IMG/VR virus record: IMGVR_UViG_2645727978_000010
Reading direction: 5' to 3' (one strand)
Origin: a virus
Taxonomy: Duplodnaviria > Heunggongvirae > Uroviricota > Caudoviricetes
Length of the DNA: 38,285 nt
A model generated the notes under the pieces. It was given only the letters and a program-made list of their open reading frames with translations. It was not told where the DNA came from and made no database searches. Of the stretch, positions 5,081 through 13,720 are shown in pieces; within the stretch, counting starts at the first letter, position 1; each line of letters opens with the position of its first letter. Position numbers and translations under genes: made by a program.

Positions 5081-5413
5081 AATTATCTCCATTTTTACAA
5101 ATGAATTTTGTCGATGCGGTGCCTGGTGCCTCCAGGTGACGTTAACCAGTTAACAATTAACGCCGGATAATCCACCCATAACACTGATGCTTTTAACTGT
5201 GCCGCGTGCGCTTAGCCGCATTCACCGCATCACAAAATTCACTTTAAAAAGGGGCGACAGGGCAGCCACGGAGTAGAACTGATGCCGCCAAAGACTACAC
5301 ATAGCAATGTCGTTATTTACAACCGGAGGCGCACTCCCACCATTTAAATTTAACAGACAAGACCGACTCTTTATGAATACCGGAAATGCGCCTTCGTGTT
5401 GTGCGCCTGTCTT

Positions 5414-10881: not shown

Positions 10882-11460
10882 ATGAGAGACATTGATGTAA
10901 GAAAGGCTGTGCATGCCAAGATTTTGAGAGATCATCATAAAGATCCTGACACCCTAATCATTGATGAGTTTACGATGAATCTGGGGGCTAGCAGAGCTGA
11001 TATAGCAGTGATCAATGGGCTTATACATGGTTATGAGTTGAAGAGCAAAAGTGATAACTTGCTCAGATTACCAGCGCAGGTGCAACATTACTCATCAGTG
11101 ATGGATAAAGTAACGTTGGTTGTCTCTGATTGCCATCTTTATGATGCTTTAAGCATAGTTCCATCATGGTGGGGGATAAAGCAAGTTACGCAAGGTGCAC
11201 GGCAAGGTATCCATTTAAAAACAATTCGAACTAGCAAGTTGAATCCACAAGTGGACAAACTTTCCTTAACAATGCTTCTTTGGAAAGATGAATTGCTTTC
11301 CCTATTAAGTGATGTAGGGGAGCTACAGAATTTGAAAAATAAACCTAAACGCGTCTTATGGTCAAAACTCGCCAATAGTATGGATGTTGGCGAGCTTCGT
11401 GAAGCTGTTCGAGTTAAACTTAAAGCCCGTAAAGAGTGGCGAGTTGCTCAACAACCTTAG
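10882..11460 (+). CDS. Predicted PD-(D/E)xK nuclease-fold protein (192 aa); sce7726-like by recollection
   Basis: Track ORF with ATG start; AT-rich; motif IIDEF...RADIAVINGLIHGYELKSK fits the D...D-x12-ExK restriction-endonuclease-like signature; family assignment not verified. Confidence 0.6.
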   Translation: MRDIDVRKAVHAKILRDHHKDPDTLIIDEFTMNLGASRADIAVINGLIHGYELKSKSDNLLRLPAQVQHYSSVMDKVTLVVSDCHLYDALSIVPSWWGIKQVTQGARQGIHLKTIRTSKLNPQVDKLSLTMLLWKDELLSLLSDVGELQNLKNKPKRVLWSKLANSMDVGELREAVRVKLKARKEWRVAQQP

Positions 11461-12517
11461 TTATGTGATGGTTTTGCCCAATCCTACGCCATACCTCTGG
11501 GCTACCAAATTTATAGTTACCAGAGGGATTGGCTTTGTAGGCTTGATACTCGTTTGCATAATATTCTATGTCTCTATCTCCCGCACAGAATGTAGGCCCT
11601 GAATATTCTCGATGAGCAAGAATATCCTCACTATGTTTACCATATTGTTCATAACCAAAGCGATTAGCTACTCTTCCTCGAAATACCCAAAAGTCATTAT
11701 CTCCAGAGTATCTGACGCTGGCAGATACGCTAGGGAATCGCGTCGAAAGCCTATTAAAGTCGGGGTGCTGTACTCCATAATCACTATAAATCACATTTCT
11801 GGCAAGTTCTTTTCTATTCATTAAACTCTGCCATAAAATCCACTCGATTCGAGGTTGAGAATATAGACCAACAGAAATATCACTGAGATCTGTAGGAAAT
11901 GAACCCCCAGAAAGAATCACTTTTCTGTATTCATTGAGGTGCGCCAGATTGTTTATCAATCCCATTGCCAAAGTATATAGTTCGCCGGAATTAAGTTTAT
12001 CCTCGGTTAACTCATCTCTTAAGTCAATAATTATATCAATATTTGATAAAGGAATTCCCAGATGATTAATGTAATGCGTTATTAATTGTGGGTTAACCAG
12101 ATCTAACGTGGTTAATCTCAAGCATATTTCATTCTGCATTAATTCATCAATCGCTCCTTTATAGTTAGATGGGCGAGTTGGTGAACTGACAGGAATAACT
12201 CTTATCCCCATATCTCTAACTTGATTAACCGCATTTATTATAGGGTAATGATCTTCAGGAGAAATAAAATGCTCTTCAATTAATAATCCATCAATATAAA
12301 CACCTTGCATATCTGAGCAAGATTTTGAGACTTTCTTTCCGAACTCTATAAGAGTCTCGTTATAACTCTTTAAGGCAATACCTGAATCAGGGTCAATTGG
12401 CACTGGTTCAATTTCGAGTAATGGCAAAATTTTTGATTTCTTTTCAATGGATAGCTGCGATAAAGCTGATAACTCAGAACGTTTCGCTTTCAGAATAGGA
12501 ATATATGAAATTGTCAT
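11420..12517 (-). CDS. 365-aa protein of unknown function; 'beta protein'/sce7725-like by recollection
   Basis: Track ORF with ATG start and AAGGT RBS (rev-comp of 12518-12535); AT-rich; convergent with the nuclease-fold gene with 41-bp 3' overlap; N-terminus MTISYIPILKAKRSEL recalls that family. Confidence 0.6.
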   Translation of the reverse strand: MTISYIPILKAKRSELSALSQLSIEKKSKILPLLEIEPVPIDPDSGIALKSYNETLIEFGKKVSKSCSDMQGVYIDGLLIEEHFISPEDHYPIINAVNQVRDMGIRVIPVSSPTRPSNYKGAIDELMQNEICLRLTTLDLVNPQLITHYINHLGIPLSNIDIIIDLRDELTEDKLNSGELYTLAMGLINNLAHLNEYRKVILSGGSFPTDLSDISVGLYSQPRIEWILWQSLMNRKELARNVIYSDYGVQHPDFNRLSTRFPSVSASVRYSGDNDFWVFRGRVANRFGYEQYGKHSEDILAHREYSGPTFCAGDRDIEYYANEYQAYKANPSGNYKFGSPEVWRRIGQNHHITKVVEQLATLYGL

Positions 12518-12869
12518 GTTAATACCTTATACAGAATCAATTAACAATTAATGGTTCTTCGGACATTGAAATTTATATCGCAAAAATTGGCAAACTCTCC
12601 TCGACTACTCACTTGTGGGTATCCTGGCGTAAAAGGAATGACTTGGCAATACCCGGTGTGATCATAAGTCATTGAAAATGATCATTTTTATCAGTCTTTC
12701 TTCCATGATGAATGCTAATGCCATTTGATTTGTTGAGGTAAAAACTGTTAAAAATCAAAACGATGTAATTGAAATGAACGTTCGGTAGCATTCACGCTTT
12801 AAATGTTTCTTTTGTGCTGATTGGATGAATTTTGGTCACTTATGATGAGAGATGTTGCAGGAAAAGAAG

Positions 12870-12898
12870 TTGGCATTGATCTATTGGATAGTTAGAAT
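12870..12898 (+). promoter_or_regulatory. Candidate hok mRNA promoter (TTGGCA -17 bp- TAGAAT)
   Basis: -35-like 12870-12875, -10-like 12893-12898; leader beginning CTTGAGGCTATCTGCCTCAGG follows, resembling the 5' end of plasmid R1 hok mRNA as I recall it. Confidence 0.35.
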
Positions 12899-12964
12899 TG
12901 CTGCGGGTGCTTGAGGCTATCTGCCTCAGGCATGAACACCAAAAGGCAGATAGAGAAAAGCCCC

Positions 12965-13027
12965 AGTTAACATTACGCGTCCTACAAGACGCTTAACATT
13001 AATCTGAGGCCCAATCTATGTCTCACA
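12965..13027 (-). ncRNA. Candidate Sok-like antisense RNA (approximate extent)
   Basis: Minus-strand promoter-like TTGCCT (13061-13056) -17 bp- TAACCT (13038-13033) inside the hok leader, reading across the leader ORF start; hairpin GCGTC-n6-GACGC at 12977-12992; ends not determinable. Confidence 0.3.
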
Positions 13028-13074
13028 AATGTAGGTTAGCCTCTTACGTGCCGAAAGGCAAGGAGAAGCAGGCT

Positions 13075-13230
13075 ATGAAGCAGCAAAAGGCGATGTTAAT
13101 CGCCCTGATCGTCATCTGTTTAACCGTCATAGTGACGGCACTGGTAACGAGGAAAGACCTCTGCGAGGTACGAATCCGAACCGGCCAGACGGAGGTTGCT
13201 GTCTTCGTGGACTACGAATCTGAGAAGTAA
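13075..13230 (+). CDS. hok: Hok/Gef-family type I toxin (51 aa; RelF/HokD-like)
   Basis: AAGGAGAAG RBS; product MKQQKAMLIALIVICLTVIVTALVTRKDLCEVRIRTGQTEVAVFVDYESEK has single TM helix plus conserved Cys, matching my recollection of HokD/RelF; the in-frame upstream extension (track ORF 13018..13230) occupies the mok position. Confidence 0.85.
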   Translation: MKQQKAMLIALIVICLTVIVTALVTRKDLCEVRIRTGQTEVAVFVDYESEK

Positions 13231-13300
13231 GAGTGACTAGGCGGGAGAGTAATCTCCCGCCACCTCTGATGTGTCAGGCATCCTCAACGCACCCGCACTT

Positions 13301-13324
13301 AACCCGCTTCGGCGGGTTTTTTGT
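13301..13324 (+). terminator. Rho-independent terminator after hok
   Basis: CCCGC-TTCG-GCGGG hairpin followed by TTTTTTGTTG; an upstream 8-bp-stem hairpin GGCGGGAG-AGTAAT-CTCCCGCC (13240-13261) resembles the hok fold-back element. Confidence 0.7.
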
Positions 13325-13507
13325 TGCGCGCTGAATGCGCAGGGTGAAAAATAACCATATATTTGATTATATACACAACAAAAAATAAAAGTCATTGTAC
13401 CTGCACATTAAACAATCAAATATACGGCGTGAAATAAATATTTTTCAGATTAATATTTTTGTCTCTATGTGGATATAACCGTTTGTACTTATAAACCTGG
13501 AGGCATC

Positions 13508-13720
13508 GTGGAAAAAATAAAGAGACTATTTAGTAGCAAATACGCAGTCATACGTCGTGATGACCTGTCAGTTATAGTCGAAATGGATTACTTCCCTGAA
13601 ACCCCAAAATCAATGATGTATCGTAATGGTCGAAAGGCAATTTTTTTACCGATGAGGGTAAGTGACATTATGGGAAATGATAAACTGCTGGATGAATTGC
13701 GAGTCAGAGCATCATGTTAG
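13508..13720 (+). CDS. Hypothetical small protein (70 aa, GTG start)
   Basis: Track ORF 13469..13720; GGAGG 13499-13503 precedes in-frame GTG 13508; AT-rich region. Confidence 0.3.
   Translation: MEKIKRLFSSKYAVIRRDDLSVIVEMDYFPETPKSMMYRNGRKAIFLPMRVSDIMGNDKLLDELRVRASC

What the first reader, a model, noticed from the sequence alone, without database searches (positions are those of the whole stretch)
12870..13324. hok/sok-like type I toxin-antitoxin locus with the mok-position ORF fused in frame to hok
The 51-aa toxin is a clear Hok/RelF homolog and the leader and 3' fold-back hairpin (13240-13261) resemble the R1 hok mRNA layout. A minus-strand promoter-like element (13061-13033) is placed where Sok would be made. 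Unlike R1, where mok is in a different frame, the upstream ATG at 13018 is in frame with hok, predicting a 70-aa extended form. The locus adjoins the candidate defence cassette.
Basis: partly seen in the sequence, partly recalled or inferred. Interest (0 to 1): 0.45.

Follow-up and report, generated by a model that had tools for sequence, protein, structure and literature searches.

The report
Known prophage hok/sok toxin-antitoxin locus
This is an intact copy of the well-known hok/sok RNA-controlled killer module, almost identical to the mokW-hokW-sokW locus of Shiga-toxin phage 933W, and its in-frame upstream reading frame is the usual arrangement for this branch of the family, so it is ordinary.

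Summary
Window 12870-13324 carries a complete hok/sok-family type I toxin-antitoxin locus.

- **Toxin:** hok is 13075-13230, 51 aa (Pfam HOK_GEF, E=4e-23). The leader matches Rfam RF01794 at 121.7 bits.
- **Upstream frame:** an in-frame ATG at 13018, 57 nt upstream, gives a 70-aa mok ORF.
- **Antisense gene:** the minus-strand promoter at 13061-13033 is sequence-identical to the sokW promoter, which has been mutated experimentally.

The locus is not new. It is 94.7% identical in DNA to mokW-hokW-sokW of phage 933W/Sp5. The Hok protein is 100% identical. GenBank already annotates mokW and hokW there as in frame with a shared stop, plus a 71-nt antisense sokW. Phage Rac-SA53 has mok/hok in the same gene context. 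K-12 mokC/hokC has the same 57-nt in-frame geometry.

But in-frame was the commonest class in my sample, 27 of 38 loci.

One correction: the hairpin at 13240-13261 is the stem-loop just after the stop codon. The true fold-back (fbi) element is 13282-13294, pairing with the 5' end at 12905-12916.

Verdict: already known, low interest.

The parts
12870..12898 (+). hok/mok mRNA promoter: -35 TTGGCA (12870-12875), 17-nt spacer, -10 TAGAAT (12893-12898)
   Evidence: Consensus scan, 10 of 12 matches. It sits 7 nt upstream of the start of the Rfam leader match at 12905. It aligns with the TATAAT upstream of K-12 hokC.
12905..13322 (+). Predicted full-length mok-hok mRNA, about 418 nt
   Evidence: The 5' end is taken from the Rfam model start and promoter spacing. 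The 3' end is taken from the intrinsic terminator. Folds at MFE -167.2 kcal/mol, z=-6.7 against shuffles. The ends are inferred, not mapped.
12905..12916 (+). tac (translational activator) element, GGGUGCUUGAGG
   Evidence: Pairs with fbi in the full-length fold and with ucb in the truncated fold. 5 of 11 tac-fbi pairs show changes on both sides across 23 loci.
12958..12966 (+). ucb / anti-SD box (AAGCCCCAG)
   Evidence: Pairs with the mok SD region 13004-13010 in the full-length fold. Pairs with tac (G1-3 and G5-U8 with 12958-12964) in the 3'-truncated fold. This mirrors the R1 tac/ucb stem described in PMC9841398.
12956..13026 (-). Predicted Sok antisense RNA, about 71-77 nt, with a 16-nt single-stranded 5' tail and a long hairpin followed by UUUUCUCU
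   Evidence: Coordinates transferred from annotated sokW of 933W (71 nt, from mok ATG+8 to ATG-62), with no indels in this interval. K-12 sokC has the same register. Folds at -26.6 kcal/mol, z=-4.8. Covers the mok SD and mok AUG.
13033..13061 (-). Sok promoter: -35 TTGCCT (13061-13056), 17-nt spacer, -10 TAACCT (13038-13033)
   Evidence: Identical sequence in 933W and Rac-SA53. The -10 was mutated in the sokW 'pro-less' construct of PMC8621323. It did not reach the generic consensus threshold.
13006..13009 (+). mok Shine-Dalgarno, GAGG
   Evidence: Read from the sequence; 8 nt before ATG 13018. GAGGC is nearly invariant in the 23-locus alignment. R1 uses the same GAGG motif (PMC9841398).
13018..13230 (+). 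mok ORF, 70 aa, in frame with hok and sharing its stop (MSHKCRLASYVPKGKEKQA + Hok)
   Evidence: ORF list. Same geometry as annotated mokW, Rac-SA53 mok and K-12 mokC. The exact sequence is in public databases on 102 contigs.
13039..13043 (+). dcb (downstream complementary box), GCCUC
   Evidence: Pairs with the mok SD GAGGC (13006-13010) in the MFE of the 3'-truncated RNA. AGCCUCUUAC is nearly invariant.
13060..13065 (+). hok Shine-Dalgarno, AAGGAG
   Evidence: Read from the sequence; 9 nt before ATG 13075. Nearly invariant in alignment A1.
13075..13230 (+). hok toxin gene, 51 aa
   Evidence: Pfam HOK_GEF E=4.3e-23. 100% identical to HokW of 933W. HokW is toxic and inner-membrane-localised in PMC8621323.
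13240..13261 (+). Stem-loop just after the stop codon (GGCGGGAGA-GUAA-UCUCCCGCC), probably the protective 3' end of the processed mRNA
   Evidence: Formed in both folds. Helices 15 and 16 are 88-94% paired across loci, with compensatory changes. The protective role is inferred from the R1 equivalent (PMC9841398).
13282..13294 (+). fbi (fold-back inhibitory) element, CCUCAACGCACCC
   Evidence: Pairs with tac in both the MFE and the centroid of the full-length RNA. Covaries with tac: UA to CG in 7 loci, and GAGG/CCUC to GAGA/UCUC in Photorhabdus.
13301..13322 (+). Intrinsic terminator of the hok mRNA
   Evidence: The only terminator-like site found in the 12700-13500 scan: 7-bp stem, 5 GC pairs, then a T run.

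Best explanation
[quoted passage not shown] Specifically, it is an allele of the mokW-hokW-sokW locus of lambdoid and Stx phages. It sits in the moron slot between the replication genes and the DUF1367/Q region of a Rac-like E. coli prophage.

The proposed mechanism is taken by homology with R1 hok/sok and Sp5 hokW-sokW, and each step is inferred unless marked otherwise.

1. A constitutive promoter (12870-12898) makes a stable mRNA of about 418 nt. Its 5' tac element pairs with the 3' fbi element, and its ucb box sequesters the mok Shine-Dalgarno. The full-length RNA is therefore inert to both ribosomes and Sok.
2. Slow 3' trimming back to the stem-loop at 13240-13261 removes fbi. The 5' end then refolds into tac/ucb, and the mok translation start becomes available.
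3. While the prophage is transcriptionally quiet, a short-lived antisense Sok RNA (about 13026 to 12956) pairs across the mok SD and AUG. This blocks mok translation and triggers cleavage of the duplex.
4. When Sok supply stops, ribosomes initiate at mok and open the hok start region. The 51-aa Hok toxin is made and damages the inner membrane.

Because mok is in frame here, ribosomes that start at mok necessarily make a 70-aa N-terminally extended Hok.

Shown here in silico: steps 1 and 2, the family covariation, the sequence identity of the toxin, and the identity of the Sok promoter. Transcripts, processing and killing were not tested.
For: - **Family matches:** Pfam HOK_GEF E=4.3e-23. Rfam RF01794 121.7 bits across the whole model.
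- **Closest relatives:** 94.7% DNA identity to 933W and VT2-Sakai, where mokW, hokW and sokW are annotated. The Hok protein is 100% identical to HokW.
- **Sok promoter:** identical to that of sokW.
- **Same context:** phage Rac-SA53 has the same order, sce7726-like, beta, mok/hok, DUF1367, ybcO, Q, as does a 99.8%-identical E. coli prophage.
- **Full-length fold:** shows tac/fbi and ucb/mok-SD pairing, z=-6.7.
- **Truncated fold:** switches to tac/ucb and mok-SD/dcb, the two states described for R1 (PMC9841398).
- **Covariation over 23 loci:** 85.9% of cells paired against 35-45% when partners are slid. 39 pairs have double changes against 23.5 in shuffles, with 0 of 500 shuffles reaching the observed value.
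- **Experiments on hokW-sokW (PMC8621323):** HokW is toxic and sokW neutralises it. The promoter-less sokW construct loses protection. Northern blots detect both RNAs. sokW disappears and HokW appears on prophage induction.
Against: - No transcript, processing or toxicity data exist for this exact allele.
- The Sok -10 (TAACCT) is a weak consensus match and was not picked up by the generic scan.
- Chromosomal hok loci hokA, hokB and hokC were reported unable to mediate post-segregational killing, as summarised in bioRxiv 10.1101/2025.08.07.668861. An intact sequence therefore does not guarantee activity.
- The first four mok codons and the Sok 5' tail differ from 933W at 6 of 16 positions. The quantitative behaviour of the pair could differ.
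- MFE predictions on a 418-nt RNA have low ensemble frequency (0.0002).
Confidence: 0.9

Rival explanations
1. The locus is sequence-intact but functionally silent. It would be a hitch-hiking remnant that no longer kills under any natural condition, as was proposed for the chromosomal hok loci of E. coli.
For: [quoted passage not shown] Decayed relatives are common. K-12 hokD has lost the whole leader, mok and sok to relBE. L011 has lost tac, and L031 and L044 have no mok. The Sok -10 is weak.
Against: All regulatory elements are present, and their pairings are kept by covariation. The identical toxin and the near-identical locus in Sp5 are active, and deleting that locus halves phage release (PMC8621323). 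The hok CDS differs from 933W only at synonymous sites.
Confidence: 0.1
2. The in-frame 70-aa Mok-Hok fusion, not the 51-aa Hok, is the functional toxin of this class. On this view the internal ATG at 13075 is of minor importance.
For: With mok in frame, every ribosome that starts at 13018 must produce the 70-aa protein. This geometry is kept in 27 of 38 related loci. Annotation pipelines often call the 70-aa form as the Hok toxin.
Against: - The 51-aa HokW alone is toxic (PMC8621323).
- The hok ATG and its AAGGAG SD are nearly invariant.
- Closely related loci use 56-nt or 58-nt spacing, where no fusion can form. The fusion product is therefore dispensable in the family.
- Conservation of the Mok N-terminus is explained by the overlapping RNA structure and the Sok promoter.
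Confidence: 0.1
3. The biological role here is anti-phage abortive infection as part of a defence island with the neighbouring sce7726/Beta-protein pair, rather than prophage maintenance or lysis assistance.
For: R1 hok/sok reduces T4 plating (cited in PMC8621323). The adjacent Beta protein matches PADLOC PD-Lambda-2_C (E=2.8e-41) and the sce7726 protein matches PADLOC 'cll' (E=2.4e-28). hok is enriched in prophages.
Against: A genome-wide study found no enrichment of hok near defence systems (bioRxiv 10.1101/2025.08.07.668861). The only experimental data for this allele's closest relative point to assisting lysis and phage release (PMC8621323). In 933W the same locus sits in a different neighbourhood, without the Beta pair.
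Confidence: 0.25

Closest known systems
mokW-hokW-sokW of Stx2 phage 933W / Sakai prophage Sp5 (AF125520, AP000422; Takada et al. 2021, PMC8621323)
   Same: 94.7% DNA identity over 91% of the finding. The Hok protein is 100% identical. mok is 57 nt upstream, in frame, with a shared stop. The Sok promoter is identical, and the tac, fbi and Sok hairpin are near-identical, with two changes in the hairpin loop.
   Different: Mok residues 2-4 are SHK here against LNT. The Sok 5' tail and its target differ at 6 of 16 positions. The sequences diverge 3' of fbi, and this locus has its own clean terminator. The neighbourhoods differ: the nin-region of a Rac-like prophage here, against the region near the 933W genome end.
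mok/hok of Escherichia phage Rac-SA53 (KU052037)
   Same: Same gene context: sce7726-like, beta, mok/hok, DUF1367 (irsA), ybcO, Q. Also the same in-frame 213/156-nt mok/hok annotation. About 93% DNA identity.
   Different: The Hok C-terminus and the post-stop hairpin differ, as does the Sok tail region.
hokC (gef)/mokC/sokC of E. coli K-12
   Same: mokC and hokC share a stop, with starts 57 nt apart, and sokC overlaps the mokC start by 9 nt. The tac sequence is the same. The Hok proteins are 80% identical.
   Different: The K-12 copy has IS186 next to it and has lost fbi. It lacks the 16-18-nt extension of the Sok-target hairpin found here.
hok/sok (parB) of plasmid R1
   Same: Same element order: promoter, tac, ucb, Sok target, mok SD/AUG, dcb, Sok promoter, hok SD/AUG, post-stop stem-loop, fbi, terminator. 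Same predicted two-state RNA switch.
   Different: mok starts 58 nt before hok, so Mok is a 70-aa protein in the +1 frame with its own stop. HokW, identical to this Hok, is reported as 44% identical to R1 Hok (PMC8621323). R1 is plasmid-borne.
hokD (relF) of the K-12 Qin prophage
   Same: The toxin CDS is nearly identical in DNA up to codon 44, and it sits in a comparable lambdoid prophage position upstream of the Q region.
   Different: In K-12, homology begins only 13 nt upstream of the hok ATG. The leader, mok, the Sok promoter and tac are all replaced by relBE. The window carries the intact form.

Membership tests
[quoted passage not shown] | Small hydrophobic Hok/Gef toxin (Pfam PF01848) | tested here: met
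   E=4.3e-23, 81.1 bits, model positions 1-42 of 42.
[quoted passage not shown] | Conserved structured 5' leader of the hok mRNA (Rfam RF01794) | tested here: met
   121.7 bits against a gathering score of 59, model positions 1-157 of 157, window 12905-13080. The match is on the hok-sense strand.
[quoted passage not shown] | Upstream overlapping mok reading frame with its own SD, whose start lies within the antisense target | tested here: met
   GAGG at 13006-13009 and ATG at 13018; 70-aa ORF. An ATG at the homologous position is present in 35 of 38 related loci.
[quoted passage not shown] | Cis-encoded antisense Sok RNA gene, with promoter and terminator, overlapping the mok start | tested here: met
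   Promoter 13061-13033 is identical to that of sokW. The register matches annotated sokW and sokC. The predicted RNA has a 5' tail, a hairpin and a U-rich end. Met at sequence level only.
[quoted passage not shown] | Long-range tac-fbi pairing that closes the full-length mRNA | tested here: met
   Present in both MFE and centroid. Across 23 loci the helix is 86.5% paired, and 5 of 11 pairs show changes on both sides.
[quoted passage not shown] | Refolding to tac/ucb and mok-SD/dcb after 3' truncation | tested here: met
   The MFE of 12905-13266 forms G1-3 and G5-U8 with 12958-12964, and GAGGC 13006-13010 with GCCUC 13039-13043. This is a prediction only; the centroid differs.
[quoted passage not shown] | Sok and hok transcripts are actually made, the mRNA is 3'-processed, and the duplex is cleaved by RNase III | not testable with these tools
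   Shown by northern blot and rnc/hfq genetics only for the near-identical Sp5 locus (PMC8621323).
[quoted passage not shown] | Toxin kills or arrests cells, and the antisense RNA neutralises it | not testable with these tools
   Shown for HokW, whose protein is 100% identical (PMC8621323).
mokW-hokW-sokW allele group (lambdoid/Stx phages) | High DNA identity across the locus, with an in-frame 57-nt mok extension and a shared stop | tested here: met
   94.7% identity over 91% of the query. mokW 58460-58672 and hokW 58460-58615. The window has 13018 and 13075 both ending at 13230.
R1-type arrangement (mok in the +1 frame) | mok start 58 nt upstream of hok, with a separate stop, so that Mok is unrelated in sequence to Hok | tested here: not met
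   R1-type L006 has mok 466-678 and hok starting at 524. K-12 mokB/hokB is also 58 nt. The window is 57 nt.

The most novel reading that the evidence does not exclude
The most novel reading not excluded has two linked parts, both for the in-frame class of hok loci.

1. One mRNA yields two toxin isoforms, the 70-aa Mok-Hok and the 51-aa Hok, with different behaviour.
2. The short hypervariable patch covering the Sok 5' tail and mok codons 1-4 (13010-13030) is a specificity code. It would keep the several paralogous hok/sok copies in one E. coli genome from cross-repressing each other.

Neither idea was tested. Both concern the whole family, not this locus in particular.
Probability: 0.25. Interest if true: 0.35.

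Novelty: already known. Interest (0 to 1): 0.08.

Why it matters
It matters little as a discovery. The locus, its in-frame mok and its antisense gene are already annotated in GenBank for phage 933W, Rac-SA53 and K-12 hokC, and the closest relative has been characterised experimentally.

Its practical value is for annotation:

- It marks the moron slot of a Rac-like prophage.
- It shows what the intact form of K-12's truncated hokD looks like.
- It reminds annotators that the 70-aa call and the 51-aa call are two products of the same locus.

The frame survey (56, 57 or 58 nt spacing, all three phases used) fits the published view that it is translation of mok that matters, not its product.

Tried and rejected
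1. A plasmid encoding the exact R1 Hok protein (L004, pMTY1886) has mok in frame at 57 nt. The numbering in PMC9841398 (mok ATG 116-118, hok ATG 174-176) showed that R1 itself differs. I checked a sequence I had recalled for R1 and it matched more than 2,600 plasmids at 99% or better. The ORF list of one of them confirmed a 58-nt, +1-frame, 70-aa Mok.

2. The generic promoter scan did not find the Sok promoter. I relied instead on identity with sokW and on the published -10 mutant.

3. The generic terminator scan did not call a Sok terminator. The hairpin plus UUUUCUCU was identified by folding and by homology to sokC and sokW.

4. I tested whether the small ORF downstream (13469-13720) is Rem of the Qin prophage. 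There is no similarity.

5. PADLOC has no model that matches Hok.

6. Literature searches for the original gef/orf69 and Pedersen & Gerdes 1999 papers found only citations, not the papers. Statements about them are second-hand.

7. The large protein-homology searches, structure prediction and fold-search tools were not used. The identity of the locus was settled without them.

Full report
**1. What is in the sequence**

The region holds a 51-aa ORF at 13075-13230, MKQQKAMLIALIVICLTVIVTALVTRKDLCEVRIRTGQTEVAVFVDYESEK. An in-frame ATG lies 57 nt upstream at 13018 and gives a 70-aa ORF with the same stop. The 51-aa protein matches Pfam HOK_GEF over the whole model at E=4.3e-23. A scan of the whole window against Rfam gave two hits. 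One is RF01794 ('sok') at 12905-13080, at 121.7 bits against a gathering score of 59, covering the full model. The other is DicF at 5303-5252. The RF01794 match is on the same strand as hok and ends at the hok AUG. It therefore identifies the hok leader, not the strand from which Sok is made.

**2. Anatomy**

- **hok promoter.** A sigma-70-like promoter, TTGGCA, 17 nt, TAGAAT, lies at 12870-12898. It sits 7 nt upstream of the leader start.
- **Terminator.** An intrinsic terminator lies at 13301-13322. This predicts an mRNA of about 418 nt.
- **Full-length fold.** The RNA folds at -167.2 kcal/mol, z=-6.7. In both the MFE and the centroid, the first 12 nt (GGGUGCUUGAGG, tac) pair with CCUCAACGCACCC at 13282-13294 (fbi). 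The box GCCCCAG (ucb) pairs with the mok Shine-Dalgarno region CUGAGGC.
- **Truncated fold.** When the RNA is cut after the stem-loop at 13240-13261, the MFE changes. The 5' end now pairs with AAGCCCC (tac/ucb, with one bulged U, as in R1). The mok SD GAGGC pairs with GCCUC at 13039-13043 (dcb). These are the 'closed' and 'open' states described for R1 hok mRNA (PMC9841398).
- **Correction.** It corresponds to the terminal stem-loop of the processed mRNA. The fold-back element proper is 20 nt further on.
- **Sok gene.** On the minus strand, TTGCCT, 17 nt, TAACCT (13061-13033) precedes a predicted RNA starting near 13026. This RNA has a 16-nt single-stranded 5' tail, a long hairpin and a UUUUCUCU tail. 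It is complementary to the mok SD and AUG.

**3. Comparative support**

Twenty-three loci were aligned, from Escherichia, Shigella, Kluyvera, Citrobacter, Pantoea and Photorhabdus, plus two plasmid loci. The window's predicted structure was then counted on that alignment.

| Measure | Observed | Control |
|---|---|---|
| Cells forming standard pairs | 85.9% | 35-45% when 3' partners are slid 1-3 columns |
| Pairs with changes on both sides | 39 | 23.5 ± 2.9 in shuffles (0 of 500 reach 39) |

The tac-fbi helix has 5 of 11 pairs with double changes. Examples are GGGUGC/GCACCC becoming GGGCGC/GCGCCC, and GAGG/CCUC becoming GAGA/UCUC. One caveat applies. The structure was derived from one of the aligned sequences, which inflates 'cells paired'. 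This bias affects the double-change counts less.

**4. The locus is already known**

- **E. coli genomes.** In complete genomes, the 561-nt query including flanks is 99.8% identical in two strains. Some match exists in 4,720 of 5,426 genomes, with a median of two places per genome and up to ten.
- **Context.** The 99.8%-identical copy lies in a Rac-like prophage. Its order is int, xis, ralR, recT, recE, kilR, then replication genes, then sce7726 and beta, then hok, DUF1367, DUF1364, DUF1133, lysis genes and terminase.
- **Phage records.** Against phage records, the locus is 94.7% identical over 91% of its length to phage 933W and VT2-Sakai.
- **933W annotation.** GenBank AF125520 annotates mokW (58460-58672), hokW (58460-58615) and a 71-nt antisense sokW (58664-58734). 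mokW and hokW share a stop and start 57 nt apart, so they are in frame. sokW overlaps the mokW start by 9 nt.
- **Protein identity.** HokW is 100% identical to the window's Hok. MokW differs only at residues 2-4.
- **Conserved elements.** The Sok promoter, tac and fbi are identical between the window, 933W and Rac-SA53. The Sok hairpin stem is also identical, and two bases in its loop differ.
- **Rac-SA53.** Phage KU052037 annotates mok (213 nt) and hok (156 nt) in the same neighbourhood as here.
- **Deposited proteins.** The exact 70-aa protein is in public databases from 102 contigs. The exact 51-aa protein is seen on about 1,000 contigs.
- **Experiments on the Sp5 locus (PMC8621323).** HokW is toxic and sokW counteracts it. 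A -10 mutant of the sokW promoter loses protection; primer YO-421 replaces AGGTTAG, the complement of the TAACCT box. Both RNAs are detected by northern blot. On mitomycin C induction, sokW disappears and HokW accumulates in the inner membrane. Deleting the locus halves phage release.

**5. The in-frame mok**

In an R1-type plasmid locus, mok is a 70-aa ORF starting 58 nt before hok, in the +1 frame, with its own stop. This agrees with the numbering in PMC9841398. The in-frame arrangement is nevertheless not distinctive.

- K-12 mokC/hokC is 57 nt with a shared stop. K-12 mokB/hokB is 58 nt with different stops.
- A plasmid encoding the exact R1 Hok protein has the 57-nt in-frame form.
- I collected 47 loci with this Hok protein as the query, taking one genome per species. 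Of these, 38 had enough upstream sequence to judge:

| mok-to-hok spacing | Loci | Arrangement |
|---|---|---|
| 57 nt | 27 | in frame |
| 58 nt | 5 | +1 frame, as in R1 |
| 56 nt | 3 | 19-codon leader whose TGA stop overlaps the hok ATG as ATGA |
| no mok | 3 | decayed |

The sample is biased towards HokC- and HokD-like toxins, so the proportions are indicative only. All three phases occur among close relatives. This fits the published conclusion for R1 that translation of mok up to the hok start matters and the Mok product does not (PMC9841398). In the in-frame class, ribosomes starting at mok must make an N-terminally extended Hok. Whether that product matters is open. The 51-aa form is sufficient for toxicity.

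**6. Relation to K-12 hokD**

K-12 hokD (relF) is nearly identical in its coding DNA. However, homology to the window begins only 13 nt upstream of the hok ATG, and everything upstream is relE. The window therefore carries the intact form of a locus that K-12 holds as a truncated remnant.

**7. Function**

The molecular mechanism is inferred with high confidence from homology. The biological role is less certain. The best direct evidence, from the closest relative, is assistance of lysis and phage release on induction (PMC8621323). Prophage maintenance and abortive infection are alternatives.

The neighbouring convergent pair consists of an sce7726 protein at 10882-11460 and a Beta protein at 11420-12517. 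They match PADLOC 'cll' (E=2.4e-28) and PD-Lambda-2_C (E=2.8e-41) respectively. A large survey, however, found no general enrichment of hok next to defence systems, although hok is enriched in prophages (bioRxiv 10.1101/2025.08.07.668861).

**8. Verdict**

The novelty class is 'already known'. Interest is low, at 0.08.

Noticed in passing
window 13010-13030 (also 12929-12946): Among 11 closely related hokD/hokW-type loci, mean pairwise difference peaks at 0.35-0.39 over the Sok 5' single-stranded tail and mok codons 1-4. The hok CDS and most of the leader stay at or below about 0.1. The window and 933W differ at 6 of 16 tail positions. This could be a specificity determinant that limits cross-talk between the several hok/sok copies in one genome. 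The sample is small and the sequences are not independent.
   Followed up: partly
loci L007-L047 (mok-hok interval), window 13018-13075: The mok-to-hok spacing falls into three classes among relatives: 57 nt in frame (27 loci), 58 nt in the +1 frame (5 loci), and 56 nt (3 loci). In the 56-nt class a 19-codon leader ends in a TGA that overlaps the hok ATG as ATGA. All three reading phases are therefore used.
   Followed up: partly
window 10882-11460 (+) and 11420-12517 (-): A convergent, overlapping gene pair lies immediately upstream of the hok locus. The sce7726-family protein matches PADLOC 'cll' at E=2.4e-28. The Beta protein (Pfam PF14350, E=7.7e-52) matches PADLOC PD-Lambda-2_C at E=2.8e-41. 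The same pair precedes mok/hok in phage Rac-SA53.
   Followed up: partly
window 5252-5303 (-): A DicF small RNA gene (Rfam RF00039, 55.3 bits against a gathering score of 48, full-length match). This fits a Rac/Qin-like lambdoid prophage.
   Followed up: no
window 12905-13080 (+): The Rfam family named 'sok antitoxin' (RF01794) matches the hok-sense strand and ends at the hok AUG. A hit to it marks the hok leader, and not the strand or extent of the antisense RNA.
   Followed up: no
window 13213-13216: Hok codon 47 is UAC (Tyr) followed by G, giving a UACG motif. The TTACGAA stretch is invariant across the 23 aligned loci. [quoted passage not shown] This toxin has only one other Cys in its C-terminal region (C30), so it may depend on such editing.
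   Followed up: no
window 12980-12997 (alignment A1 columns 121-138): hokD/hokW-type loci, including this one, carry a 16-18-nt insertion (CGCGUCCUACAAGACGC) relative to hokC, Photorhabdus and R1. It extends the Sok-target/Sok terminator hairpin by a GC-rich 5-6-bp stem. This makes Sok about 71-77 nt instead of about 59-64 nt.
   Followed up: no
L002 5275-5347 (K-12 relE-hokD junction), against window 13062: K-12 hokD keeps only 13 nt of upstream homology. The leader, mok, the Sok promoter and tac are all replaced by relBE, so the K-12 copy is a truncated remnant of the type of locus seen in the window.
   Followed up: yes
L018 (Acinetobacter idrijaensis, 275-bp contig), L026 (Xanthomonas pisi, 431-bp contig), H48 (Actinobacillus phage vB_Apl-pPE4): Near-identical E. 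coli-type hok sequences turn up on very short contigs of unrelated genera. The best phage hit, at 96.1%, is a record labelled as an Actinobacillus phage. Assembly contamination or host mislabelling in public records is the likely cause.
   Followed up: no
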